DNA of 64,000 nt from a virus: the IMG/VR virus record IMGVR_UViG_3300037479_000437, positions 233 through 64,232 of that record. One strand, 5' to 3'. This document shows positions 1,509-62,618 of the stretch, piece after piece. Both the position numbers and the translations under genes were made by a program. How positions within the stretch are numbered: position 1 is the stretch's first letter; each line of letters opens with the position of its first letter. The notes below the pieces were generated by a model. The model had not been told where the DNA came from and did no database searches. It was given only the letters and a program-made list of their open reading frames with translations.

Positions 1509-1803
1509 AGAATTTCACCTTGAATTTATCGAATGTCCGCAGTGCCTGAATATCCAGGATGCGCCAGTCGGGCATACGCAGCCTGTCTACAGCTACACGC
1601 ATGATTGTCGGTACTGCGGCTATACAATCCTGGAGTCTGAATGGAATAATGCTGTTCCAACTGCGGAATGCGCATACCATCTCGGCGTCGCTTATGCCTT
1701 GCGGGCTATGCTGCTTCCTCAGGAAGCTACGCCTGCCCGGATTGAAGCCGTTCTTCAGACAGCAAACAGTCTGTTACAGAAAGTGAAAGAACAAAACCAA
1801 TGA
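1498..1803 (+). CDS. Zn-ribbon hypothetical protein
   Basis: CPQC...CRYCG pairs; GAGG RBS-like sequence before ATG at 1498. Confidence 0.55.
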   Translation: MMNEEFHLEFIECPQCLNIQDAPVGHTQPVYSYTHDCRYCGYTILESEWNNAVPTAECAYHLGVAYALRAMLLPQEATPARIEAVLQTANSLLQKVKEQNQ

Positions 1804-2333
1804 TGAAACGTCATATCAGAGAATCAATTGATAAACAAAAAGAAAAACATCAGATCAGGCAATTGAGAATCACGTCCAGTCCCAAAGGTTACCAGCCCGA
1901 AGACTGGGCAGCACCTCTGACTGAAGGAGAATTGAATTATCTGCGGCTGTACATCAAACCTGAACTGATGGAAAAAATCAGACAACTCAATGAAAGCTAC
2001 CAGGCCCGACATTACACTTATGCCGATCTGCGCCTGGATGCGCTTGCGCAGACAATCCATTCAGTCGAGGCAGTCCGGCTGACTCAGCGTGAACTGCACA
2101 TGTGTCGGCTCTTGATGACGCATGCGCCTGATCCGGTTCCCTTTCAGGCTCTGATTGAAGCCTGGAAATTTGAGGGGGTAACTGAAGCAGGGCATGTCAT
2201 TGCAGTTTATGCTGCCAGTTTGCGCAAAAAAATACGCGCTGCCGGATCATTCCTGCGGCTATGCGGTGATTCAAAAGCCGGTCTTTGTTATTTTTCCGCT
2301 CCGGCAGAACGATCACCAGCAAGAGTAAAGTGA
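1800..2333 (+). CDS. Winged-helix DNA-binding protein (OmpR/PhoB C-terminal-like)
   Basis: LTQRELHMCRLLMTHAPDPV...VIAVYAASLRKKI resembles the Trans_reg_C pattern; no receiver domain. Confidence 0.65.
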   Translation: MMKRHIRESIDKQKEKHQIRQLRITSSPKGYQPEDWAAPLTEGELNYLRLYIKPELMEKIRQLNESYQARHYTYADLRLDALAQTIHSVEAVRLTQRELHMCRLLMTHAPDPVPFQALIEAWKFEGVTEAGHVIAVYAASLRKKIRAAGSFLRLCGDSKAGLCYFSAPAERSPARVK

Positions 2334-5343: not shown

Positions 5344-6744
5344 TCACAGGATTTCCCAGGCGTCTTTCCATCTGATGGGCTGGTGAGGCCAGCCGGTTCC
5401 CGGATCGAAGGATGGATCAATGCCGCCCGTCACCGCTTGTTGCGCAATCGCGCCCATTGTCGGCAGGCCCTGAAAGCGATGTTGTCGGCCATGCGCTTTG
5501 CAGCCATTGACCGCATCATCGAACAGACGCGAGCAGAAAGTAGCTGAAGTCACTGCCCCGCATTTCGGCCCTTTGAAGTCAATCACGCAATGAAACGAGC
5601 GCGGACGCGCGCCCAGCCGCACAGATGGCGGATTCATATCCGAAGCGATTTCCAGTTTCAGCAACTCATCCGAGCCGGTGTCGGCCAGTTCCGGCGCGAT
5701 GATCGTTCCACTGAACACCTGATCGCCTGACCAGACATCGGGCGCTGTTTCAAACAGCCAGAAGATTTTCACTCCGGCGCCTTCGAGGAGTCGCGCCGGG
5801 TCAATGATCGCTGCGCCATAACGCAGAGATAAGTTGGTCAATGTCAGTTCAGCGTTATCCGGCGCGCGGCCTTCACTGAAGCGGATTTCAGGCGTGCCCA
5901 TCAGGTCACCTTCCCAGTTGTAATCGTTCCATTGTACCGGCGCCGTAGCCACGCGCAACGTGAAATTATCTTCTGTTTCATAAAAGAGTGGCAGATTGTA
6001 GCGCGAAGCCAGATACTGCTCTACGCGCTGGCGTTCAAGCAATGAAAGCAGTCGGGTATAAAACAGAACTTCGGCAATCTGTCCCTGAAACGGTTCTGTG
6101 CCATCGAATTTCCGACCCAGCCAGAGCGTAGTTGCGGCCAGGCCGTTGCTGTTCGTCGCCTGGATTGCCTGCGTTACCCCGTCCAGCCAGGAACGCTGTC
6201 CGCTGGGGTTGTTCGGACTGAATTGCACGGTAATGAGATGAAAAGCCTGATCATGAATTCCCAATGGAATTGAAAACTGCCCGCTCACGGTAAACATCCC
6301 ATTTGGATCGCCGATGATCGCGTAATCAGAATTGTTCTCCTGAAAGCGCAACATTGATCGGGCATTGCCACGCGCGACGATAAAGACAGTCATCTGTGAG
6401 CCGGGGCCGGGCGGGCCGATCAGCGCATCATCAACTCCATCGAACTCTATAACCGGACGCCCATTCAGTTGTGCATTGCGAAAGCGTGGGCGCTGGGCAG
6501 CAATTCCCTGTCCGGCGTCAAACGCGCTCGCGCTGCGATCAGGCCAGACTGCTACGCCGTCGCCTTCGTCAAGCGTCAAATCTTCGGCGCGGTACCAGGA
6601 GCGCAAACCAGGCACAAGCTGCGGCTCGACAATGCGCGGACCGGGAATAATAATTTCTGCCGCCTGGACAGTTTTCGCCGTTCCGGCATACAACCGCGTC
6701 AGAATTTGATCAGACAAATCACGAGCCATCAGATTGACTCCCAA
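5344..6744 (-). CDS. Baseplate hub / minor tail protein (gpL/DUF2163-like) with inserted LamG (concanavalin A-like) domain
   Basis: LRSWYRAED...WPDRS...LNGRPVIEFDGVDD...FQGQIAEVLFYTRLLS LamG signature; C-terminal Cys cluster (HC..DFKGPKCG...C.R....C..H.....F.G). Confidence 0.75.
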   Translation of the reverse strand: MGVNLMARDLSDQILTRLYAGTAKTVQAAEIIIPGPRIVEPQLVPGLRSWYRAEDLTLDEGDGVAVWPDRSASAFDAGQGIAAQRPRFRNAQLNGRPVIEFDGVDDALIGPPGPGSQMTVFIVARGNARSMLRFQENNSDYAIIGDPNGMFTVSGQFSIPLGIHDQAFHLITVQFSPNNPSGQRSWLDGVTQAIQATNSNGLAATTLWLGRKFDGTEPFQGQIAEVLFYTRLLSLLERQRVEQYLASRYNLPLFYETEDNFTLRVATAPVQWNDYNWEGDLMGTPEIRFSEGRAPDNAELTLTNLSLRYGAAIIDPARLLEGAGVKIFWLFETAPDVWSGDQVFSGTIIAPELADTGSDELLKLEIASDMNPPSVRLGARPRSFHCVIDFKGPKCGAVTSATFCSRLFDDAVNGCKAHGRQHRFQGLPTMGAIAQQAVTGGIDPSFDPGTGWPHQPIRWKDAWEIL

Positions 6745-7019
6745 TCAGGTAATTCGACTGTTTTTCCTTTCAGGTCATGCCAGCAGTCACCGAGAAACTG
6801 AATTTTGCCATCGGTAATGAATGAGTGGCATTGCCATTTCGTATTCCTGTTGACCATGATGCTTGGACTGACTGTGGGGCGTTCTGGCTTCTCATTCCAC
6901 AGCCAGCATGGTTCCGGGCCGGAGACTCTGACCCAATGGTCAGAGCGACAACCGGGGCAATGGAACAGATAAGCCTCGCCCTCAAATGTCGGATCGTTCG
7001 CTGGTTCAAATTTCGCCAT
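6729..7019 (-). CDS. DUF6527-like small Cys/His protein
   Basis: FHCPGC..H, W.WN....PTVSPSI, CHSFITDGKIQFLGDC.H.L.G.TV.LPD. Confidence 0.75.
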   Translation of the reverse strand: MAKFEPANDPTFEGEAYLFHCPGCRSDHWVRVSGPEPCWLWNEKPERPTVSPSIMVNRNTKWQCHSFITDGKIQFLGDCWHDLKGKTVELPDWESI

Positions 7020-7037
7020 GTTTCTCCCTGGTCAGAA

Positions 7038-7144
7038 GTCAATTTCGGCGTTTTTCAGCGTCGTGATTGCATTTTTATCCGGGGCGCAACCCCTTTTCCT
7101 GATCTGACGGCAAAAATGCAGCCACGACGCTCTAATGCGCAAAT
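7038..7144 (-). repeat. Copy 1 of a dispersed ~105-nt palindromic element
   Basis: 20-nt arms at 7057-7076 and 7112-7131 (18/20 complementary) around a 35-nt core; similar to the copies at 51174 and 61950. Confidence 0.8.
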
Positions 7145-7160
7145 TCTGCGCCCAGGGTTA

Positions 7161-10100
7161 TCAGGTCAGAATTGACTCAATATCTCCGGCCAGACCGGCC
7201 TGGCCCTGTTTGCGGACATCTTTGCGGACAACACGAACAATACTGCGCCGCCCTTCCGAAGTATTGTTGATTACGTTTGTCACGATCTTTGTCTGGTCTG
7301 CCTGCCCGATTTCAAAGGCATTGTTGACGATCAGCGTAATATTCACCGGTGTTGGAATAGCTGCGGCAATGTCGGTCGCAGCGGCTGGCGCGGGAATCGT
7401 CAGGGGCGCATTGAAGGAGGAAGCAGAGAAAGAATTATTGAATGACAAAGCGCGTGCGCGTGAGGCTTCAAATACCAGCCCGGCCAGGCGTGTCTGATCT
7501 GCCGGACTGACCACCAGTTCATTCCCGGTGACGCGGATCAGCCGCTCCAGTGGCGCAGTCAGTCCACCGCTGGCAAAGCGTGGTAATGCGGTCTGAGTGA
7601 CTCTGTTGCTGCGGCTGGAAATCGTTTCCGGTTGAGTCGCGCGTTGGAGCGTCGCGCCGGGTTGCTGCGCCGCGTCAGCCGCGCGATCATTGACGATTGA
7701 TCTCTGATCGAAGCGTGTTATCACAGATGAAGTCTGATTAACGATCTGCTTGTTTTCTTCCTGACTGCGCCTGGTTTCATTGAAGAGAGAATGCGCAGAC
7801 TGACGCTGAACTTCGGATGACTGAGTCAGATTTTCATTCTGTCTCAAATTGATCTGATCAATCGTTGTTTCCCGGCTTCGTTCTTTGCGCGTCAGGGCTT
7901 CCCGGACTGAAGTTGTCTCAATCGGCGCGCGGCGCGAGCGGGAAGTCGTCAGAATCAAATCAGCCAGATTTGCCTGTTGATGCGGATTCAGCACGAGTTC
8001 ATTGCCAGTGACGCGAATCACTTTATCGTCGCTGCCGTCAAATACGCCCGGCACGCGCCCGGTAAACCCGCCTGAAGCAAATGTCGGTAATAATAAATCA
8101 CTTACTCCCCGGCGTTTCTGCTGTCGTTCGGCAGCTTCTTTGAGCGGCGCAACATAAACGCGATCCACATCAGCCAACTGGTTTTTCAGACGACTTTCCC
8201 GAACTGATTTTGTTTTGATCTGATTGAGCGCGGCTACAGTCTGCTGCCGCAACTGCGCCGCTTCGGCCAGCGCCTGGGCGCCGTCTATCCGGTCAGCATT
8301 GACCAGGCGCGTCAGTTCAGCCAGGCGGTCGGCTTCAGCGCGCCAGATGGCATCGGCATTTTTCTCATCTGTTTTTCGCTGTTTTGCCCGGCCCAGGAAA
8401 AAGCTTCCAATCAGCAGTCCGATTCCGGCAATAATCGTAATCGGATTGGTCAGCAGGCCGAAGGCAGCAGAACCAAGAATTGCCGCATTCGTTCCCCCTA
8501 CACCCAGGCCGGTCAACAAGCCAGTAATTGCGCCTGTTCCGGCAATTCCGGCAAACGCTGAAGCGCCGAGCAGCAGCCCGCCTGCGCCGCCCAGGATTTT
8601 GCCCGCCGTGCTTTGCCCGCCAAGTTGCGTTCCCAGCGATAACCCAAGCAGAGGCGCCAGGGGAGCCAGGCCCTGAAGGAAAGAACCGCCCGCAATTGCT
8701 CCGCCTGCCGTTGTGCCAGCCTGCGCGACAAAGGGCGGCGTGCGGGCCAGTTCGGTCAGTCTCGACTGACTCAGAAAAGCCTCAGTCAAAGTCTGCGCTG
8801 TGCCTGCTGCGCCGCCAATCCCCCCAATTCCTCCAATCGCTGCGCCCTTCGCATTGCGCGCCAGCGCAGCCGCCAGGGTTGCCGCTACGGGGGCAGCGGT
8901 GGCGATATTTCCGCCTGGCTGTCCGCCGGGTCGGAGCAGGCCGGCCAGTGCCGCAATCGGATTGAAGCCCCCGGTTGCGCCTCCTGCGCGCGCGCCGCTG
9001 ATCGCTGACAGGGTTTGCGCAAGCTGCTGCGGCGCGACAAACGGCGGAGTTTGAAATCCACCTGCTCCGCCGCCGAGAATTGCCTGCAAGACAGAGCCGC
9101 CACCAGCCTGTTGTCCGCTCTGTCGCGGCGCGAGAAATAACGAAGCGATTGAGCCGATCAGCCCGCCGCCCCCGCCGAAAATCCCGCCTCCGCTACCGCC
9201 ACCAGCTACGCCCGTCAGCACGCGCGTAATCAGATTGCGCGTAATCGTTTTGATCAAATCTGCAACAATTTCACCGAAGAAGCCGAGTTTGGCCGTCAGT
9301 TTATCAATTCCGCGCTCAAGCACGCCGATAAATGTCTCATACGCTTTGATCTGCGCGTCGGCGACGGCTTCAGTCAGGCCCTTTTGTGCCGCCAGGTGTT
9401 CCAGTAACTTCCGGTTCGCTCTGTCCTGCCGGAAAATCTGATTGTCAGCAAGCTGCTGCTGAATTTTTTCCTGACTGGTCAGTTCAGCGCCCAGATTGCG
9501 CAACGCGGCAATCCGTTCATTGATCTGCAACAAATCGCGCTCGGCTGTTTCAGCTTCTGCGCCGCCCAGGGATTGCTTTTGTTCGAGCAACTGGCGCTGT
9601 AAGACGACTTCTTCGAGCAGGACAGTGCGCAGCCTGCGCCGGGCTTCAATCTGCGCGTCAGCGGCTTCTATTGCGTCAATCTGGCCGCGTGACTGAGCGC
9701 CGCTGATCTGTTCTTCCACGATATTCAGAGTTGTTTGCGTGGCGTCAAAACGTAACTCACTGCGTTTGACCTGCTCATTCAGATCAAAATGAGCCAGGCG
9801 TAGTTCCTGCATTTTTTCGATCAGATCAAGAATGTCGCGGCGTCCGGCCTGCGCGGCGGTTTTGACGGCTTCGGCATATTCTTCCGCCAGCCGCCGGTTG
9901 AAGGATTCCTGCTTTACTCCGGTCAGTTCAAGGTACGCAATCCGGGTCTGTTCGATTGAGCGGCGTTCCTGCTCTTCAGTCTGGCGCCGTGCGGCTGCAT
10001 TCGCTTCTGGCAAGGCTTGTTGTTTTTCGCGCAGGACAGCACCCTGACTGCGCAATTGTGTGGCTTGCGTTTCAAGGCGCAATATTTCCTGTTCTTTTGC

Positions 10101-36522: not shown

Positions 36523-37777
36523 CGAAGCCTCAAAGAAGACCCCCGCGCTTCAGGCGGGGGATGAATTTGAGAAGCCCGAAAGGGCTTGATTTATGCACTT
36601 GAAAGATTTTGCATAAAATGCGATAATTCTTTCGTGCATAAGAATTACGAATACAGGTTGTATCCAACCAAAAAGCAAATTACGTTGCTTGAACAGTGGC
36701 TTGATGAATGCCGTTGGCTCTACAACAAATTGCTTGAGCAGCGTAAATTGGCTTACGAGTTGGAGAAAAAGACGTTGAAAATGTATGACCAAATCAACGG
36801 GTACGGCATGTTGAAGCAAGAACGTGAGAGCCTGAATCTTGTGCATAGCCAAGTTCTGCAAAACGTGGCAGTCAGAATAGACCTGGCATTTAAGGCATTC
36901 TTTCGCCGCATCAAGGCAGGCGAGAAGCCGGGCTATCCGCGCTTTCGCGGCAAATATCGCTACGATTCTTTCACCTTCCCACAAGTACCTTCGGGTTGTT
37001 CGATTGACGGTAATCATCTGAAGCTGTCGAAGATTGGCAAAGTCAAAATCAAACAGCATCGCAAGCTGGAAGGCGTGCCGAAGACCTGCACAATTAAGCG
37101 TAGCAGTACAGGGAAGTGGTACGCTGTGTTTTCCTGTGAAGTCGAACAGTCCGCTCCATTGCCTAAAGCCAAATCCGAAGTCGGCATTGATGTTGGCTTG
37201 GAATCCTTTGCCTATTTGTCGGATGACACCCGTATTGAGAATCCGAAGTTTTTCCGGCAAGACGAAAAAGAAGTGGCGAAGGCGCAGCGCAAATTGAGCA
37301 AGGAAGCCAAAGGTACGCCAGCGCGAGCAAGGCGCAGAAAGCCTGTAGCTCGCATTCACGAGCGCATTCAATGGCGCAGAAAGAATTTCGCGCATCAAGA
37401 AGCGCGCAAGATTGTTAATCAACACGGAGTTATTTGCGTTGAGGATTTGAACGTCAATCGAATGCTCCACAATCATTGCTTGGCAAAATCTATCAGTGAT
37501 GCGGCGTGGTCGTTGTTCTTTCAACTGATTCAGAGCAAAGCGGAAGAAGCTGGCCGAATCGTAGTGAAAGTCAATCCCGCCTACACATCGCAGACGTGCC
37601 ACCAATGCGGACACAGGCAAAAGAAAAACCTGAGTGAGCGTTGGCATAAATGCGAGTGTTGCGGGTTTGAATGTCATAGAGACTTAAATGCTGCGTTGAA
37701 TATTAAGGCTTTGGGGCTACAAAGCCTGTTCGTTACCGAACAAGAAGCCGCTCCTCTTTAGGGAGCGGAGTAGTCAC
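36523..37777 (+). mobile_element. IS200/IS605-family element, TnpB only (IS1341-like)
   Basis: Preceded by TTTAT; left-end hairpin cccccgc-gcttcag-gcggggg; right-end hairpin ccgctcc...ggagcgg ending GTAGTCAC. Confidence 0.85.
36634..37761 (+). CDS. tnpB: RNA-guided endonuclease TnpB
   Basis: YEYRLYPT, RuvC residues GIDVG / VEDL / RDLNAALNI and Zn finger CHQCG...CECCG; GTG start chosen by homology. Confidence 0.95.
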   Translation: MHKNYEYRLYPTKKQITLLEQWLDECRWLYNKLLEQRKLAYELEKKTLKMYDQINGYGMLKQERESLNLVHSQVLQNVAVRIDLAFKAFFRRIKAGEKPGYPRFRGKYRYDSFTFPQVPSGCSIDGNHLKLSKIGKVKIKQHRKLEGVPKTCTIKRSSTGKWYAVFSCEVEQSAPLPKAKSEVGIDVGLESFAYLSDDTRIENPKFFRQDEKEVAKAQRKLSKEAKGTPARARRRKPVARIHERIQWRRKNFAHQEARKIVNQHGVICVEDLNVNRMLHNHCLAKSISDAAWSLFFQLIQSKAEEAGRIVVKVNPAYTSQTCHQCGHRQKKNLSERWHKCECCGFECHRDLNAALNIKALGLQSLFVTEQEAAPL

Positions 37778-38351: not shown

Positions 38352-39482
38352 CTAAAGGCAGGGGATTCTTTGGTCAACAGGCAGAGTAACCGCTGCCCTC
38401 GCAACTCGCGCTGTCCGAGCGAGTATGTTTCGCGCCGCATTATGGTCTCTCTGAGCAACATAGCCACAAACAATGCAACGGTGTTCGCGCACTGCCAGCG
38501 ACTTCTTCACTCTTGCCCCACACTGCGAACAGTCTTGACTGGTGTAGGCAGGCGCAACTTTCCAAACCTTCCGTCCAGCGTTCTCAGCTTTGGCGGTCAG
38601 GATATTCACGAAAGTTCCCCATGCTGCATCAGTGATGGCTTTAGCGAGATGATGGTTTTTCACCATCCCTTTTATGTTCAAGTCTTCAATGGCGATTTCG
38701 TCAAACTCGCGCAGCAATTGATTGGCCGTTTTGTGAAAGAAATCCTGTCGTTGATTCGCAACTTTCAAGTGTTGCCTGGACAACAACCGAACCGCTTTTT
38801 TACGATTTGCGCCGCCGCGTTTCTTCTTGCTGACTTTGCGTTGCTGGCGTTTCAAGCCAGCTTCAGCCGTGCGCAAAAATCTCGGATTCTCAATTACCTC
38901 GCCCGTCGAAAGGGTAGCAAAGTTTTCCAGCCCCACATCAATTCCCACGCTCTCGCCAGTTTTCGGCAAAGGCAGCGGCGCATCTTCTGCTGTGAAGATG
39001 ACAAACCAGCCATCCGCTTGTCGGCGCAGCGAGCAGGTTTTGATTTTCCCGCCTACTTCCCGCGACAAACGCAGACGAACAGAGCCGATTTTCGACAAGG
39101 TAAGCTTGTTGCCTTCCAACTTGAACCCGCTTTGCGGATAGGTGAACGAATCATAGCGGTTGCGCCCTTTGAAACGCGGGAATCCAACCTTGCCTTCGCC
39201 TTTCTTCACGCGAGTGAAAACCGCCTTGTAAGCCTTATCCAGTCGCTTCAACACGTCCTGCAAAACTTGCGAGTGAACACCTGCCACGTCTTCGCGCAAG
39301 TCTCTGATTGCGCTCAATTGGTTGGCTTGGTCGTAGTAGTTCAGCGAGGTTTTTGCTTGCTGGTAAGCAGCGCGGCGTTCCTGCAACGCGGCATTGTACA
39401 ATTCGCGGCACACGTCCAACGTGGCATCAAGACGTGCGGCGACGCGCTTGGACGGTTTCAGCTTGTACTTGAATGCTTTCAC
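38352..39482 (-). CDS. tnpB: RNA-guided endonuclease TnpB
   Basis: GIDVG / IEDL / RDHNAARNI RuvC triad; CSQCG...CIVCG Zn finger. Confidence 0.95.
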   Translation of the reverse strand: MKAFKYKLKPSKRVAARLDATLDVCRELYNAALQERRAAYQQAKTSLNYYDQANQLSAIRDLREDVAGVHSQVLQDVLKRLDKAYKAVFTRVKKGEGKVGFPRFKGRNRYDSFTYPQSGFKLEGNKLTLSKIGSVRLRLSREVGGKIKTCSLRRQADGWFVIFTAEDAPLPLPKTGESVGIDVGLENFATLSTGEVIENPRFLRTAEAGLKRQQRKVSKKKRGGANRKKAVRLLSRQHLKVANQRQDFFHKTANQLLREFDEIAIEDLNIKGMVKNHHLAKAITDAAWGTFVNILTAKAENAGRKVWKVAPAYTSQDCSQCGARVKKSLAVREHRCIVCGYVAQRDHNAARNILARTARVARAAVTLPVDQRIPCL

Positions 39483-39485
39483 TTT

Positions 39486-39890
39486 TCACCCTTGCCGTTG
39501 GTTCTCAACGTATTGCTTAATCGCATCCAATGGCGCACCGCCAACGGTCACAACAAAATAGCTAGGACTCCACAAATGACCGCCCCACAAACGATTCTTG
39601 AGCCGGGGAAATTCTTGAAACAAGCGCCGCGCCGTAACTCCCTTCAGACTGTTAATGAGCTTGGAAAGCTGATGCGTTGGCTTCGTTCTCACCACAATGT
39701 GAACGTGGTCAACTTCGTTTTCCGTTGCAAGCAATTCAACATCGGCTTTCTCGCACAACTCGCGCAACAATGCAGACAATCTATCGCCAACTTCGCGCGT
39801 CAAAACAGTACGCCGATATTTCACGCACCAAACAATGTGAAGTTGAAGTTGGTGTACCGAATGACTACCAGATTGAAGGTCGTACTTCAT
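39486..39890 (-). CDS. tnpA: Y1 HUH transposase TnpA
   Basis: HIVWCVKYRR, DHVH (HUH), LWSPSYF and YVENQ (catalytic Tyr). Confidence 0.95.
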   Translation of the reverse strand: MKYDLQSGSHSVHQLQLHIVWCVKYRRTVLTREVGDRLSALLRELCEKADVELLATENEVDHVHIVVRTKPTHQLSKLINSLKGVTARRLFQEFPRLKNRLWGGHLWSPSYFVVTVGGAPLDAIKQYVENQRQG

Positions 39891-40061
39891 ACCGTGAAGT
39901 ATAACACAACCAATTCCACAAACAACGCAAATCTTCTGTTCTTGCAGAAGTTCCGCAAATGCAACCAATTATCTCTTTCGCGGGTATCGAACCCGCTCAG
40001 AGATGTGAAATTCATCCCCTCCCTGAAGGAAGGGGTCTTCTTTCACGATTTGATAAAACCC

Positions 40062-43798: not shown

Positions 43799-43905
43799 TT
43801 CACGGGCAAAAATAAATAAAAGCCCCTGAGAAGTAAAATTCTTCGCACGCAACCGATTGAAAACAAAGCAAATATAAATTATTTCAAAAAAACTTTATCT
43901 TGTAT

Positions 43906-43934
43906 TTGACGCATAAATCAAAAGGGGATATTAT
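43906..43934 (+). promoter_or_regulatory. Sigma70-type early promoter
   Basis: TTGACG-N17-TATTAT with an AT-rich upstream tract. Confidence 0.8.
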
Positions 43935-50935: not shown

Positions 50936-51155
50936 ACTGAAGAGCAGAGAGCGGCTGGTAACTGCTCTCTGCTCATTGCCTGAAGAACAACGGCGTGAAT
51001 TGTTCACGCTGCGCCGCGCGCAACGTCAGGAAATTTTTCGCCGGTTTGAAGAATATCGCCTGACCTGCGCCCGGCTGCATGTCCCACTTGAGTCTGCGTC
51101 CTGGCTGGCCGACGCAATTCTGCTGGTGCAGCAGGTCGGCAGATTTGAAGACTGA
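50868..51155 (+). CDS. Hypothetical protein
   Basis: Probable ATG at ~50919, overlapping the upstream stop. Confidence 0.4.
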   Translation: MFWSNRLGGNFSSTRLTMKHHNKLKSRERLVTALCSLPEEQRRELFTLRRAQRQEIFRRFEEYRLTCARLHVPLESASWLADAILLVQQVGRFED

Positions 51156-51173
51156 AAAGATTAAAATCCGGGT

Positions 51174-51272
51174 TTTGCGCAGACAGGCCCGCTGCTGCAT
51201 TTTTTTGACGTTGCGCAAGGGAGAACAAGGCTTTGTGGTCAAAAATGCAGCCTTGAGGCTCTAAAACGGCAA
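51174..51272 (+). repeat. Copy 2 of the dispersed palindromic element
   Basis: tttgcgca...gctgcattttt-N36-aaaaatgcagc...aggct..aaaacggcaa. Confidence 0.7.
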
Positions 51273-51340
51273 TCCGGGCACTCTGAACAACCGTCGGTCA
51301 ACCCCCGACGCAAGCTGGAGAAATAATCGGAGAAATAATC

Positions 51341-51742
51341 ATGGAAGAACTGAACAAAACAGTCCCCGCGTATCGTCGTCCGATTCGGGAAATCATTGCC
51401 GATTTGAGCAAGCCGATCCCGGATCGCTTTCTCAAGGACAAAACCATCAAAGGGAACAAACTGACTTACATTCCCTGGTATCACGCGATCAAACTGCTTG
51501 ACTGGTTTGCGCCGGGCTGGTCGTTTGAAGTCAGAGAGATTTCCCCGACTGGCAAACAAACCGTCCTGGTGGTCAGGCTGATCATTCCCGCCGCTGAGGG
51601 CGATGTCTGGCGCGAAGCGACAGGCATTGAAGAAGATGATGTCACCGGCTACGGCGACACCAGTAGTAACGCCGAGTCTATGGCACTGCGTCGCGCAGCC
51701 GCTAAATTCGGCCTGGGCCTCTATCTGTACGATAAAAAATGA
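51341..51742 (+). CDS. Rad52/22-like single-strand annealing protein
   Basis: YIPWYHAIKLLD.FAPGWSFEV...REATG...SNAESMALRRAAAKFGLGLYLY. Confidence 0.88.
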   Translation: MEELNKTVPAYRRPIREIIADLSKPIPDRFLKDKTIKGNKLTYIPWYHAIKLLDWFAPGWSFEVREISPTGKQTVLVVRLIIPAAEGDVWREATGIEEDDVTGYGDTSSNAESMALRRAAAKFGLGLYLYDKK

Positions 51743-56248: not shown

Positions 56249-57967
56249 ATGATCATTCGACAATCGGGATTGCACGGGAAAACTCCCATTTCGCGCTCGC
56301 TCTTGCAGGATCATTCCCTCAGTTTTGCTGCTCGCGGCATGCTCTGTTATCTGCTCAGTCATCCTGATTCCTGGGAAATTCGCCTGGATAACCTGGAAGA
56401 AGAAGGCAGCATCACTACCGGACAGCGACGGCAGATTATGCGCGAAGCGGAAGCAGCGGGCTACCTCGAACGCATCAGAACTCACACCGCTGAAGGGCAT
56501 CTTGAGTATCGTAATATCCTGCATGAAGCCCCATTACCACACGCACAGCGAACACGTTTGCAAAGTCCGCGCAACAGACACTTGCTGCAAATGTCTGCGC
56601 ACAACCTGACTCAGGCTGAAAGCAGTCAGGATTTAGCCGCATCCAATGAGTCACCATATGCAGATTTACCATATATGGTAAAAGTGAATATGGTAATCCC
56701 GGAAGCAGACGGCACCATATCTCCAAAATCTGCATATGGTGACATCTCTGAACTCTCCTGTTCTCAGTCACTTACTGTTGATGTTATTGAACCACCATAT
56801 GCGGATTTACCGCATATGGTAAAAGCGCATACAGCGACGGAAGCCGGTTTCACCATATGCGCAAAATCTGCATATGGTGGTTTTTCTGCAATCGCGCAAG
56901 TCCTTTATTTTCATCCACCGTCTGTTTGCTTTGTCAAGCCACCATATGCACTTTCACCATCTACGGTAAAATTGCATATGGCCATACATAATAGGAACAT
57001 GATTAGTGAATTAATAATACATGCAAGTGATTCTCCCCATGGGGTTCATGAAAACACTGTTCTTCAGGAACAAAAACAAAGTGATTTAATACATCGCGCG
57101 CATGACATGCATGCGCGCGCGCGCGAGGCAGAAGCCGACGAGCCGACAGCGCAGGAACTTCCCGCCGCGCCCGGCCCGGAGAGCGGCGGGCTGTCGCCCG
57201 CCCAGCCCTCTGAGTTTGTTTTTTCGCTGTGTTCTGATCCGACCCGGCAGGCGCTGTATCGGGGCGAAACGGCGCCGGTGCTGCGTTCCAACCGGGCGGG
57301 CCTGACCGATACAGCGGATTTCAGTGAGTGGCGCGACTGGTGCCACGATTTTTTCAAGTGGAACTGGGAGAAAAAATACTCCGGGCAGAAATTCAAATGC
57401 TCGCGCAATGACGGCATGCGGTTGTCCGGGCTGCTCAAGGCGCAGGAAGCACTGACGTGGCGCGACTGGCGCGCAGCAGTTCACAATTACTTCCACAGCG
57501 AAGGGCTGGCGCTGCACACGCTGGGCGATCTGGCGAATCGGTATACGACTTTTCGCGCACATCCGCTCAATCGCTTCAAGCAACCGCAGGAGAATTATCG
57601 GGCCAGTGAATTCCAGGGGTTGACCCCGGCAGAAATGATCGCAATTTTTCATTACGATCAACGACACTCAATTCGCAAGCAGGCTTTTGGCCGGATCAGC
57701 GTGCTGATCGAACAGGAAACTCTGACCCGACAACCGGCAGATCCGGTTGAGTGGGAATGGCTGCGACTATTGCTGGCCGGTGAAATTGATCCGCTCCAAT
57801 ATCCGCGTCTGTTTCAGTATCGCCCGATCTATTATGCCCGACGCGGGTTGCCAGTCCCTGACACTTTGACGCCGGAGCAGCGTCGTTTCCGCGATGAAAT
57901 TCTTGCCGCAGGCGGCTTGCTGCCTGCTTCCTCACCATCTTCGGAAATCATTCAGGAAACCAAATGA
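56249..57967 (+). CDS. Replication initiator (N-terminal wHTH, lambda O-like organisation)
   Basis: QDHSLSFAARGMLCYLLSHPDSW...EAAGYLER; internal iteron-like repeats; directly upstream of the primase-helicase. Confidence 0.75.
   Translation: MIIRQSGLHGKTPISRSLLQDHSLSFAARGMLCYLLSHPDSWEIRLDNLEEEGSITTGQRRQIMREAEAAGYLERIRTHTAEGHLEYRNILHEAPLPHAQRTRLQSPRNRHLLQMSAHNLTQAESSQDLAASNESPYADLPYMVKVNMVIPEADGTISPKSAYGDISELSCSQSLTVDVIEPPYADLPHMVKAHTATEAGFTICAKSAYGGFSAIAQVLYFHPPSVCFVKPPYALSPSTVKLHMAIHNRNMISELIIHASDSPHGVHENTVLQEQKQSDLIHRAHDMHARAREAEADEPTAQELPAAPGPESGGLSPAQPSEFVFSLCSDPTRQALYRGETAPVLRSNRAGLTDTADFSEWRDWCHDFFKWNWEKKYSGQKFKCSRNDGMRLSGLLKAQEALTWRDWRAAVHNYFHSEGLALHTLGDLANRYTTFRAHPLNRFKQPQENYRASEFQGLTPAEMIAIFHYDQRHSIRKQAFGRISVLIEQETLTRQPADPVEWEWLRLLLAGEIDPLQYPRLFQYRPIYYARRGLPVPDTLTPEQRRFRDEILAAGGLLPASSPSSEIIQETK
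56650..56990. repeat. Iteron-like direct and inverted repeats (CACCATATGC core), candidate replication origin
   Basis: caccatatgc(a/g)gattt and its complement aaatctgcatatggtg recur several times, followed by an AT-rich tract. Confidence 0.75.
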
Positions 57968-61411: not shown

Positions 61412-61633
61412 ATGACAGCAGACGATATTCAAATCGGCAAAACGTACCGCGCGAAGCGATTCAGAAAATCAATTTTCGGATTCAATAACGACCGGCGCAT
61501 TCTCTGGATCAGTGAAAACCGAACCATGATTCAATACGACTCAGATACGGTAGCCGATGGGCGCCTGTTTCCGATTATCTCAATGGAACAGTTTCTGAAA
61601 TGGGTCAAATGTGAAGTAATCGCAGAAAGTTGA
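61412..61633 (+). CDS. Small beta-rich hypothetical protein
   Basis: IQIGKTYRAK...R.ILWI.....QYD. Confidence 0.55.
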   Translation: MTADDIQIGKTYRAKRFRKSIFGFNNDRRILWISENRTMIQYDSDTVADGRLFPIISMEQFLKWVKCEVIAES

Positions 61634-61642
61634 ATTGAAAAG

Positions 61643-61891
61643 ATGAAAGAAGATAAATTTATCGTTGTCTGGCATAAGGACGCAGGATTGATCGTCAGTA
61701 AATTAGTAGCTGAACATTTCGGACTGCACGATCAGCAGAGAATCACTGACGATATTGAAGCAAATTGTCTGATGCGCAGGCAGGCTGAATACATGAAAAG
61801 CAGAATGGAGCGCAGACTGGCGGAACTGAGAGAACAGAAAAAATCAAAGGATCAATCCAGTGAAGACTTCCCCGGATGGATCAGTTCCTGA
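61643..61891 (+). CDS. Hypothetical protein
   Basis: Lies between two ~35-nt direct repeats. Confidence 0.5.
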   Translation: MKEDKFIVVWHKDAGLIVSKLVAEHFGLHDQQRITDDIEANCLMRRQAEYMKSRMERRLAELREQKKSKDQSSEDFPGWISS

Positions 61892-61949
61892 AATGGGTCA
61901 AAGAAGAAGTGGCCGACCAGTGTTGAACGGGTTTAAATCAAATAACGGA

Positions 61950-62054
61950 TTTGCGCATCAGGGCGTCGTGGCTGCGTTTTCCGAGCAGATGACAGGTTTC
62001 ACTTTGATCTGACCCTGAAAATGCAGCCACCAGGCTGAAAACGGCAAATTTGAC
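61950..62054 (+). repeat. Copy 3 of the dispersed palindromic element
   Basis: tttgcgcatcagggcgtc gtggctgcgttttc-N35-gaaaatgcagccac caggctgaaaacggcaaatttgac. Confidence 0.8.
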
Positions 62055-62087
62055 ATAAATCAGCCGAACAAGGTGAAGGATTTGACG

Positions 62088-62618
62088 ATGAATCGCACAC
62101 TTTACGAAATCAGTAGTGATTTGCTGGCGCTTGATGAACTTCTTTCCGAAGTTGAGGGTGATGTGACTGATGATGAAGCTTGTGCCGCAATTGACGCCTG
62201 GCTCGCAGAACTCGGCTCAGAGCGCAACCGCAAGCTGGATGCCTACGCTGCGCTGCTCCGAAATTATGAGGCGCTGGCTGACGTTGCAGAAACAGAATCT
62301 CTGCGACTCGCTGAACTAGCCAACGCGCGAAGAAAAACGGCTGAGCGGCTGAAAACGCGATTGAAAGAATTTTTTGCACAACATAATCTGACCAAACTCA
62401 GTACGGAGCGATTCAGCTTCGCAGTGATAAAAAACGGCGGTAAAGCTCCATTGCTGATTCCTGATTCATGGCTTGCTACACCGGCTGCCGCGCCTGAACG
62501 ATTTCATCGGCGACGAATCGAACTCAATAAAGAGGACATTCGCGCGGCGCTTGAAGCAGGCGAACTGATTCCCGGCTGCGCAATTGATCAGAGAGGAACG
62601 CATTTGCGAATCAAATGA
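62088..62618 (+). CDS. Siphovirus Gp157-like protein
   Basis: TLYEIS..L...KLDAY...RLK.....KNGGKAPL...I...L..G..IPG......HLRIK. Confidence 0.85.
   Translation: MNRTLYEISSDLLALDELLSEVEGDVTDDEACAAIDAWLAELGSERNRKLDAYAALLRNYEALADVAETESLRLAELANARRKTAERLKTRLKEFFAQHNLTKLSTERFSFAVIKNGGKAPLLIPDSWLATPAAAPERFHRRRIELNKEDIRAALEAGELIPGCAIDQRGTHLRIK

What the first reader, a model, noticed from the sequence alone, without database searches (positions are those of the whole stretch)
7038..7144. Dispersed ~105-nt palindromic element with a fixed-length variable core, three copies (here, 51174-51272, 61950-62054)
All copies read TTTGCGCA..(A)G(A/G)GC...GCTGC(A/G)TTTT-[35-36 nt]-AAAATGCA(G/A)(C/T)C...GCT..AAAACG(G/C)C, with inverted arms of 11-20 bp. 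The cores are largely dissimilar but conserved in length. Each copy is intergenic and in the sense orientation of its operon: minus strand after the tape measure gene, plus strand before Rad52 and before Gp157. Inference: an RNA-level element (RNase III-type processing or antitermination hairpin), a MITE/REP-like unit, a two-half-site protein or recombination site, or a scaffold carrying a variable guide-like core.
Basis: seen in the sequence. Interest (0 to 1): 0.65.

Follow-up and report, generated by a model that had tools for sequence, protein, structure and literature searches.

The report
Palindromic mini-insertion repeats in a phage
Three copies of a roughly 100-126-base hairpin-forming DNA repeat sit between genes of an uncultivated phage; they look most like small insertions of a MITE-type mobile element, missing from the nearest relative, so this is a new example of a known kind and not a new RNA-guided system.

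Summary
There are exactly three copies (7047-7143 minus strand, 51174-51270 plus, 61950-62045 plus), far beyond chance. Each has a conserved left arm, a conserved but different right arm, and 37-38 poorly conserved bases between the inner boxes. All three are intergenic and lie in the sense of their operon.

The new evidence is comparative. The only close relative I could find (IMG/VR record G001, syntenic at 65-75% nucleotide identity) has no copy. At the three matching places it has tight gene junctions or a different gene. Each window copy is also flanked by a 7-8-base direct repeat (per-site chance 0.025, 0.025 and 0.09). In copies 1 and 3 the similarity between copies starts and stops exactly at those repeats. 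That is the signature of an insertion with target-site duplication.

No copy turned up in IMG/VR, JGI/ENA metagenomes, GTDB genomes, GenBank phages or plasmids. Rfam has no match. The element is unrelated to the IS605 ends in the same genome, and the phage's VIPR guides do not match the cores.

Best reading, at 0.45: a low-copy MITE-like palindromic insertion, co-transcribed as a long hairpin. An effect on the messenger RNA is inferred, not shown. The contrast between conserved arms and a variable centre is only partly explained.

The parts
7038..7163 (-). Copy 1, whole unit between its flanking direct repeats. The conserved block is 7047-7143. It fills the gap between the tape-measure stop codon (7161-7163) and the DUF6527 gene start (7019).
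7164..7171 (-). Copy 1, left 8-nt direct repeat. It overlaps the last codons of the tape-measure gene.
7030..7037 (-). Copy 1, right 8-nt direct repeat, just before the ribosome-binding site of the DUF6527 gene.
51173..51270 (+). Copy 2, with conserved block 51174-51270. It lies between the 95-aa ORF (stop at 51153-51155) and the Rad52-like gene (ATG at 51341). It is the most diverged copy and the weakest hairpin.
51165..51172 (+). Copy 2, left 8-nt direct repeat. It overlaps a segment that resembles the outer part of copies 1 and 3, so its meaning is uncertain.
51271..51278 (+). Copy 2, right 8-nt direct repeat.
61941..62055 (+). Copy 3, whole unit between its direct repeats, with conserved block 61950-62045. 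It lies upstream of the Gam-like (Gp157 family) gene, whose likely ATG is at 62088. It is the best hairpin (z -5.5).
61934..61940 (+). Copy 3, left 7-nt direct repeat.
62056..62062 (+). Copy 3, right 7-nt direct repeat.

Best explanation
The element is a small, non-coding, palindromic insertion of the MITE type. It carries no enzyme of its own and landed three times in gene-to-gene gaps of this phage lineage, after that lineage split from its nearest known relative. Each landing left a short duplication of the target. Because every copy lies inside an operon, it is transcribed with its neighbours and should fold into a long hairpin: an outer stem of about 5 bp, a conserved internal loop, and an inner stem of up to about 20 bp. 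That hairpin may be cut or bound by RNase III-type enzymes, or may shield the upstream message, as shown for Correia elements of Neisseria. Shown here: the repeat family, the flanking direct repeats, and the absence from the relative. Inferred: transposition as the way of arrival, an unknown and probably host-encoded enzyme, and any effect on RNA.
For: (1) Each copy is flanked within 35 nt by an exact direct repeat of 8, 8 and 7 nt. In 20,000 random placements in the same genome, P(>=8) is 0.0245 and P(>=7) is 0.089 per site, so the joint chance is about 5e-5. (2) In copies 1 and 3 the similarity between copies begins right after the left repeat (a shared 5-mer) and ends right before the right repeat (a shared 9-10-nt outer segment), as expected for the ends of an inserted unit. 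(3) The nearest relative G001 (TerL 71% aa, syntenic at 65-75% nt over nearly the whole window) has no copy by profile or pattern search. At site 1 its tape-measure stop is followed after 11 nt by the next tail gene. At site 2 the two flanking genes overlap by ATGA. At site 3 a different gene is present. (4) The size (98-126 nt), the lack of coding capacity, the intergenic position and the inverted arms fit the published definition of prokaryotic and viral MITEs (PMC11602168). (5) The left-arm and right-arm similarities group the copies differently, and copies 1 and 3 share a core 9-mer in opposite orientation. This points to exchange between copies at the DNA level. (6) On the RNA side, the sense strand folds 1.2, 5.7 and 5.1 kcal/mol better than the antisense strand.
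Against: The direct repeats sit at different distances from the conserved block: 20/9, 1/0 and 9/10 nt. The inverted arms are subterminal, not at the very ends, which is unusual for DDE-type MITEs. The repeat of copy 2 overlaps sequence that looks like part of the unit in the other copies. Recent transposition from one master copy would give similar cores, yet the arms are 77-90% identical while the centres are near random. This needs either different source copies, constraint on the arms, or fast decay of the palindrome centre. There are only three copies. No transposase can be tied to them, and none was found in about 40 ORFs scanned apart from the IS605 TnpA/TnpB. No further copy exists in any collection searched. 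G001 is not a precise empty site: at sites 2 and 3 the surrounding sequence is also replaced. All three copies being in the sense orientation has a 1-in-4 chance under random insertion.
Confidence: 0.45

Rival explanations
1. It is a selected RNA element: an intercistronic hairpin kept for messenger processing, stability or attenuation (RNase III-type site or 3' stabiliser). How it arrived would then be unimportant.
For: All copies lie in the sense orientation between co-directional genes. They start 17, 18 and 23 nt after the upstream stop codon. The sense strand folds better than the antisense strand in all three. Different flanking bases extend the stem base in each copy. Two more distant relatives have unrelated hairpins at the same place upstream of their Rad52 gene.
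Against: There is no covariation in the arms. Copy 2 has four mismatches and a z-score of -1.2. The arms are conserved in sequence beyond what pairing needs. No U-tract follows the hairpin, so it is not an intrinsic terminator. The closest relative does without it at all three sites. Rfam has no match.
Confidence: 0.25
2. It is a DNA site: two half-sites for a phage or host protein (regulator, recombinase), or a cassette-boundary sequence that promotes module exchange, like the PeSL cassettes of T4-type phages.
For: Each arm is conserved in sequence, the spacing is fixed, and the outer boxes are asymmetric. All three copies lie at indel or replacement junctions relative to G001. Two of them directly precede genes (DUF6527, Gam-like) that all four relatives lack. 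Amino-acid identity to G001 jumps from 41% to 83% across copy 2.
Against: No sigma-70-like promoter lies in or next to any copy, although the phage's early promoter is a good sigma-70 match. All copies are inside operons. No binding protein is identifiable. At site 3 the replaced segment begins about 800 nt upstream of the element, not at it.
Confidence: 0.17
3. It is a REP/REPIN-type or IS200/IS605-derived palindromic element moved by a Y1 (HUH) transposase, such as the TnpA encoded at 39486-39968.
For: It has a REPIN-like layout, with two inverted conserved arms and a less conserved spacer. A Y1 transposase gene is present in the same genome.
Against: The arms share nothing with the ends of the IS605-type elements in this genome. 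By established knowledge of the family, Y1 elements insert without target duplication, yet repeats of 7-8 nt are seen here. No conserved tetranucleotide lies next to the copies. No high-copy family appears in any genome or metagenome scan.
Confidence: 0.05
4. It is a fixed scaffold that presents a variable, guide-like or decoy-like 35-nt core as RNA.
For: Conserved arms frame a variable centre of nearly constant length. The phage already carries an RNA-guided VIPR locus.
Against: The cores have no match of 12 nt or more elsewhere in this genome or in three relatives, apart from one chance 12-mer, and none in 50,697 phage records. VIPR guides read by the published one-base-skip rule do not hit the elements at up to 3 mismatches. 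Similarity fades gradually from the arms into the core, as in a decaying palindrome, rather than stopping at a sharp boundary.
Confidence: 0.04

Closest known systems
Correia repeat enclosed elements (CREE / NEMIS) of Neisseria (PMC2649163)
   Same: They are about 105 bp or 155 bp non-coding units with 26-bp inverted ends and a directional core. They duplicate the target, are mostly intergenic, and also occur in a prophage region. When co-transcribed, the inverted ends form a hairpin that RNase III binds or cleaves. They are also recombination hotspots.
   Different: There is no sequence similarity. CREE have over 100 copies per host genome and a conserved core. Here there are three copies, in a phage only, with diverged centres. 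The flanking repeats are 7-8 nt, not the very short duplication I recall for CREE (own knowledge, not checked). No IHF site or promoter-forming end was recognised.
MITEs in viral genomes (vMITEs; Nadal-Molero et al. 2024, PMC11602168)
   Same: They are small non-coding units with inverted repeats and 2-10-bp target duplications, intergenic, and rare in phages.
   Different: Published vMITEs usually have matching copies in the host genome. No host or other copy was found here, and the inverted arms are not flush with the duplications.
PeSL (promoter-early stem-loop) cassettes of T4-type phages (Arbiol et al. 2010, PMC2839356)
   Same: They are repeated stem-loop motifs between a stop codon and the next ribosome-binding site. 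They lie preferentially in front of accessory genes and at insertion, deletion or replacement junctions between close relatives.
   Different: PeSLs are defined by a strong sigma-70 promoter joined to the stem-loop, and none is present here. PeSLs number about 50 per genome and have no flanking target duplications.
REP / REPIN elements with RAYT transposases (own knowledge)
   Same: Two inverted conserved arms and a less conserved spacer form a hairpin of about 100 nt in intergenic DNA.
   Different: REPINs are high-copy chromosomal elements tied to a RAYT gene and have no target duplication. None of this is seen here.
RNase III processing hairpins of phage T7 early and late transcripts (own knowledge)
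   Same: They are dispersed, sense-oriented intergenic hairpins with an internal loop, inside polycistronic phage messages.
   Different: T7 sites are about 50-60 nt, are conserved among relatives, and have demonstrated cleavage. Here the nearest relative lacks the element and nothing is known about cleavage.
Integron attC sites such as Vibrio VCRs (own knowledge)
   Same: They are imperfect palindromes of about 60-140 nt placed right after an ORF, all in one orientation, with conserved ends and a variable centre.
   Different: The defining core sites at the two ends are not present, and no integron integrase was found among the ORFs scanned. attC insertion leaves no variable target duplication.

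Membership tests
MITE (miniature inverted-repeat transposable element) | Small (50-800 bp) non-coding unit | tested here: met
   The units are 98-126 nt. No ORF is shared by the copies.
MITE (miniature inverted-repeat transposable element) | Terminal inverted repeats of at least 10-15 bp | tested here: inconclusive
   The inverted arms have 10-22 paired bases. In copies 1 and 3 they begin 9-20 nt inside the unit, so they are not at its very ends.
MITE (miniature inverted-repeat transposable element) | Target-site duplication of 2-10 bp flanking each copy | tested here: met
   Exact repeats of 8, 8 and 7 nt flank the copies. The per-site null is 0.0245, 0.0245 and 0.089. They are clean for copies 1 and 3 and ambiguous for copy 2.
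MITE (miniature inverted-repeat transposable element) | Presence/absence polymorphism at orthologous sites | tested here: met
   The element is absent at all three sites in relative G001. Only site 1 is close to a simple empty site.
MITE (miniature inverted-repeat transposable element) | A parent IS or transposase with matching ends | tested here: not met
   The only transposase genes found belong to the IS605 type, and their ends are unrelated to the element. The host genome is unknown.
Correia element (CREE) | The 26-bp Correia repeat sequence and its characteristic core | tested here: not met
   The element's arm sequences share nothing with the CREE end and core motifs quoted in PMC2649163 (compared by eye). 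The element has no match in any collection searched.
PeSL cassette | A sigma-70-like promoter joined to the stem-loop | tested here: not met
   No promoter-like site lies in or beside the copies. The best arm reading is 6 of 12 consensus positions, judged by eye.
PeSL cassette | Lies between a stop codon and a Shine-Dalgarno sequence, in front of accessory genes, at junctions that differ between close relatives | tested here: met
REP/REPIN | High copy number in a cellular genome and an associated RAYT gene | tested here: not met
   No copies were found in 185,579 GTDB species genomes or 241 million metagenome records with the three-box pattern. The Y1 gene present belongs to an IS605 unit.
Integron attC | Conserved core sites at the two ends (RYYYAAC and GTTRRRY) and an IntI integrase | tested here: not met
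   Read from the sequence, the left ends carry only the last 4-5 bases of the first box, and no GTT box lies at the right end. No tyrosine recombinase was found among the ORFs scanned.
RNase III processing site | About two turns of double-stranded RNA in the transcript, and cleavage in vivo | not testable with these tools
   Copy 1 has a stem of about 22 bp, copy 3 about 14 bp plus interrupted pairs, and copy 2 about 10 bp. Cleavage needs an experiment.
Any Rfam family | Score at or above the family's gathering threshold | tested here: not met
   There were no matches at gathering scores in the window. At lax E-values only generic hairpin (microRNA-precursor) noise appeared.

The most novel reading that the evidence does not exclude
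The arms are a recognition frame for a phage-encoded protein, and the unit spreads within phage genomes by its own means. It would carry a fast-changing cargo of about 35 nt, displayed in the loop of a transcribed hairpin, to act as a decoy or guide against hosts or rival phages. This would be a scaffolded variable-loop RNA family unrelated to CRISPR or VIPR.
Probability: 0.05. Interest if true: 0.8.

Novelty: new member of a known kind. Interest (0 to 1): 0.35.

Why it matters
Transposable elements, MITEs included, are rare in phage genomes (PMC11602168). A three-copy family with no counterpart in very large sequence collections shows that such elements can settle in the tight gene junctions of a phage. 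One of the junctions here is at the very end of the tape-measure gene. If a host genome carrying the same element is found, the element would link this orphan phage to its host. If the hairpins are processed, they would be a simple case of an insertion rewiring operon expression in a virus. The finding also warns that a frame of conserved arms with a variable core does not by itself indicate a guide RNA.

Tried and rejected
(1) Copies elsewhere. There were five pattern scans of IMG/VR, JGI/ENA metagenomes and GTDB genomes. All hits were inspected and were chance or unrelated conserved sequences. BLAST of whole units and of the cores against phages and plasmids found nothing.

(2) Relatives through neighbouring proteins. 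The Gam-like protein and the 466-aa tail protein gave none.

(3) VIPR guides targeting the cores: none at up to 3 mismatches, and real guides did no better than reversed controls.

(4) Relation to the IS605-type ends in the same genome: none.

(5) Sigma-70, sigma-54 or Bacteroidetes-type promoter in the arms. There was no consistent match. A sigma-54-like spacing occurs only in the left arm of copy 1 (by eye).

(6) Intrinsic terminator: no U-tract follows the hairpin in the sense direction.

(7) The shared 9-mer as a polar signal. It is a common coding-strand word in this genome (15 sense against 4 antisense occurrences for its 8-mer, 10 expected), so it is not special genome-wide, although sharing it between two cores is not chance.

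(8) Removing copy 1 in silico to restore alignment with G001: not decisive beyond the tape-measure end.

(9) Host hunt: TerL was not found in 401 sampled Pseudomonadota genomes.

Full report
**What the window is.** It is nearly all of a 64.6-kb IMG/VR virus record, linear, with CheckV completeness 79%. It is a tailed phage. The late genes lie on the minus strand from about 2.4 to 43.9 kb: tape measure, Mu-type portal, S49 protease, an E-type capsid protein and TerL. The early genes lie on the plus strand from 43.9 kb: an AAA ATPase, a Rad52-like annealing protein, a primase-polymerase/helicase, a Gam-like protein and a Holliday-junction resolvase. The early promoter at about 43.9 kb is a good sigma-70 match. 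Earlier notes of this scan describe a VIPR guide-RNA locus at 52.6-54.6 kb, a structured leader RNA at 43.9-44.5 kb and IS605-type elements.

**Checking the observation.** The three copies are real.
- Degenerate patterns for the left and right arms give 3 and 4 matches, against 0.04 and 0.00 in shuffles.
- A profile built from the copies finds no fourth copy and no lone arm in the genome.
- The conserved block is 97, 97 and 96 nt. The inner boxes are 37, 38 and 37 nt apart.
- The two arms pair through their inner 10-20 bases. Their outer parts differ from each other, and that difference is kept in all copies. This gives the unit a direction.
- By that direction copy 1 is on the minus strand (99.7 against 34.7 bits), so all three copies face the same way as their operon. 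With three copies, this has a 1-in-4 chance of arising at random.
- The blocks begin 17, 18 and 23 nt after the upstream stop codon. For copy 3 the figure is 58 nt if the other candidate stop is the real one. They end 27, 70 and 42 nt before the next start codon.
- The cores are not entirely unrelated. Similarity decays from the arms inward, and copies 1 and 3 share a 9-mer next to opposite arms.

**Folding.** As RNA, the sense strands fold to -42.1, -41.1 and -47.8 kcal/mol, and the antisense strands to -40.9, -35.4 and -42.7. The z-scores against shuffles are -3.1, -1.2 and -5.5. The consensus is an outer 5-bp stem, an internal loop of about 7 by 8 nt whose two sides are both conserved, and an inner stem of up to about 20 bp. 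There is no compensatory change in the arms. Copy 2 carries four mismatches, yet each of its arms still resembles the corresponding arm of the other copies. Sequence is therefore conserved more than pairing. No Rfam family matches.

**Searching elsewhere.**
- Pattern scans of IMG/VR (four patterns), of 241 million metagenome records and of one genome for each of 185,579 species returned only chance or unrelated hits. I read every hit.
- BLAST of whole units and of cores against GenBank phages and plasmids found nothing.
- The element is therefore not a widespread host repeat in sampled data.

**The relative.**
- Single-protein searches with the neighbouring genes found no kin. The DUF6527 family is common in phages, but only at 55% identity or less and in varied contexts.
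- TerL found one real relative, G001, a 67.4-kb record labelled provirus. It aligns with the window at 65-75% nucleotide identity through almost all modules. Its late block is inverted relative to the window.
- G001 has no copy of the element.
- At site 1 in G001, the tape-measure stop is followed after 11 nt by the start of the 466-aa tail gene. Both the element and the DUF6527 gene are missing.
- At site 2, the orthologue of the 95-aa ORF and the Rad52 gene overlap by ATGA. Amino-acid identity to the window is 41% on the left and 83% on the right.
- At site 3, an unrelated 159-aa gene stands where the window has three small genes, the element and the Gam-like gene.
- Three further Rad52-bearing records (50-65% identity) also lack the element, DUF6527 and the Gam-like gene. 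Two of them have unrelated hairpins upstream of Rad52.

**Flanking repeats.**
- Each copy is bracketed by an exact direct repeat within 35 nt of the block: 8 nt at 7164-7171 and 7030-7037, 8 nt at 51165-51172 and 51271-51278, and 7 nt at 61934-61940 and 62056-62062.
- For random pairs of 35-nt windows at the same spacing in this genome, P(>=8) is 0.0245 and P(>=7) is 0.089. All three together have a chance of about 5e-5. Copies 1 and 3 alone give about 2e-3.
- In copies 1 and 3 the stretch between repeat and block is itself shared. A common 5-mer follows the left repeat directly, and a common 9-10-nt segment ends directly at the right repeat. Similarity between the copies therefore ends where the repeats begin.
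- The left repeat of copy 1 overlaps the last codons of the tape-measure gene.
- This is the pattern left by insertion with target duplication.
- Three weak points remain. The arms are subterminal. The distances from repeat to block differ between copies. The repeat of copy 2 overlaps sequence that resembles the outer segment of the other two.

**Weighing the readings.**
- The comparative and flanking-repeat evidence favours a MITE-like insertion, at 0.45. Its published definition is met for size, non-coding nature, target duplication and presence/absence. It is only partly met for terminal inverted repeats, and not met for a parent transposase (PMC11602168).
- The nearest described analogue in form and likely consequence is the Correia element. 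It is about 105 bp, with inverted 26-bp ends and a directional core, duplicates its target, is found also in a prophage region, and forms an RNase III substrate when co-transcribed (PMC2649163).
- The main unexplained point is the contrast between arms at 77-90% identity and near-random centres.
- A single recent master copy cannot explain that contrast. Possible explanations are separate source copies from an unsampled host family, constraint on the arms, exchange between copies, or fast decay of the centre of a palindrome. Exchange is suggested by conflicting arm groupings and the inverted shared 9-mer. Rapid change at palindrome centres is known behaviour of long palindromes in bacteria (own knowledge).
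- A purely RNA-level, selected hairpin (0.25) fits the orientation, the position after stop codons and the sense-strand stability. It does not fit the weak copy 2 or the relative's compact junctions.
- A DNA protein site or PeSL-like cassette boundary (0.17) fits the junction positions. It lacks the promoter that defines PeSLs.
- A link to the Y1 transposase in the genome is unlikely.
- The guide-like core idea is not supported.

**Limits.** There are only three copies and one informative relative. The host is unknown. One tool (look-up of encoding contigs) was closed. Nothing here tests RNA cleavage or protein binding.

Noticed in passing
window 2500-40500 against G001 (loci L138-L141): The whole late (structural) block is inverted relative to the nearest relative, in which early and late genes all run one way. 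In the window the block is bounded by a convergent terminator region near 2.4 kb and the divergent promoter region near 43.9 kb.
   Followed up: partly
window 6729-7019 and 62088-62618: The DUF6527 gene and the Gam-like (Gp157 family) gene that directly follow copies 1 and 3 are absent from all four related records (G001-G004). They are accessory genes of this lineage.
   Followed up: partly
window 51317-51340: An exact tandem duplication of a 12-nt unit containing the ribosome-binding site lies immediately before the Rad52-like start codon. A small hairpin lies at about 51293-51309 between copy 2 and this duplication.
   Followed up: no
window 61583-61634 and 61876-61927: A 52-nt gene-end segment is repeated at 75% identity. 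The second copy is out of frame with the ORF that runs into it (61643-61891). This could be a frameshifted paralogue or a fused gene, and it leaves the true stop before copy 3 ambiguous (61891 or 61926).
   Followed up: no
window 62048-62062 and 43905-43921: The right outer segment and flank of copy 3 closely resemble the -35 region of the phage's early promoter: about 15 shared bases with a 2-nt gap. No -10 box follows at copy 3.
   Followed up: no
window 56647-56978, and G001 about 5950-6230: Arrays of palindromic iterons lie inside the 603-aa gene upstream of the primase-helicase. The relative has iterons of a different sequence at the same place. This is a likely replication origin with lineage-specific repeats.
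   Followed up: no
window 1800-2333: This ORF has an OmpR/PhoB-type winged-helix DNA-binding domain (Pfam Trans_reg_C, E 5e-7). It is the only recognisable DNA-binding regulator found among the ORFs scanned.
   Followed up: no
window 36550-37677: A 375-aa ORF beside IS605-like end hairpins has no Pfam match, unlike the TnpB at 38352-39482. It may be a diverged TnpB-like gene.
   Followed up: no
L143 about 2750-2950 and L144 about 2880-2930: More distant relatives carry unrelated strong hairpins (one terminator-like) just upstream of their Rad52 gene. This suggests the position is a recurrent transcript boundary.
   Followed up: no
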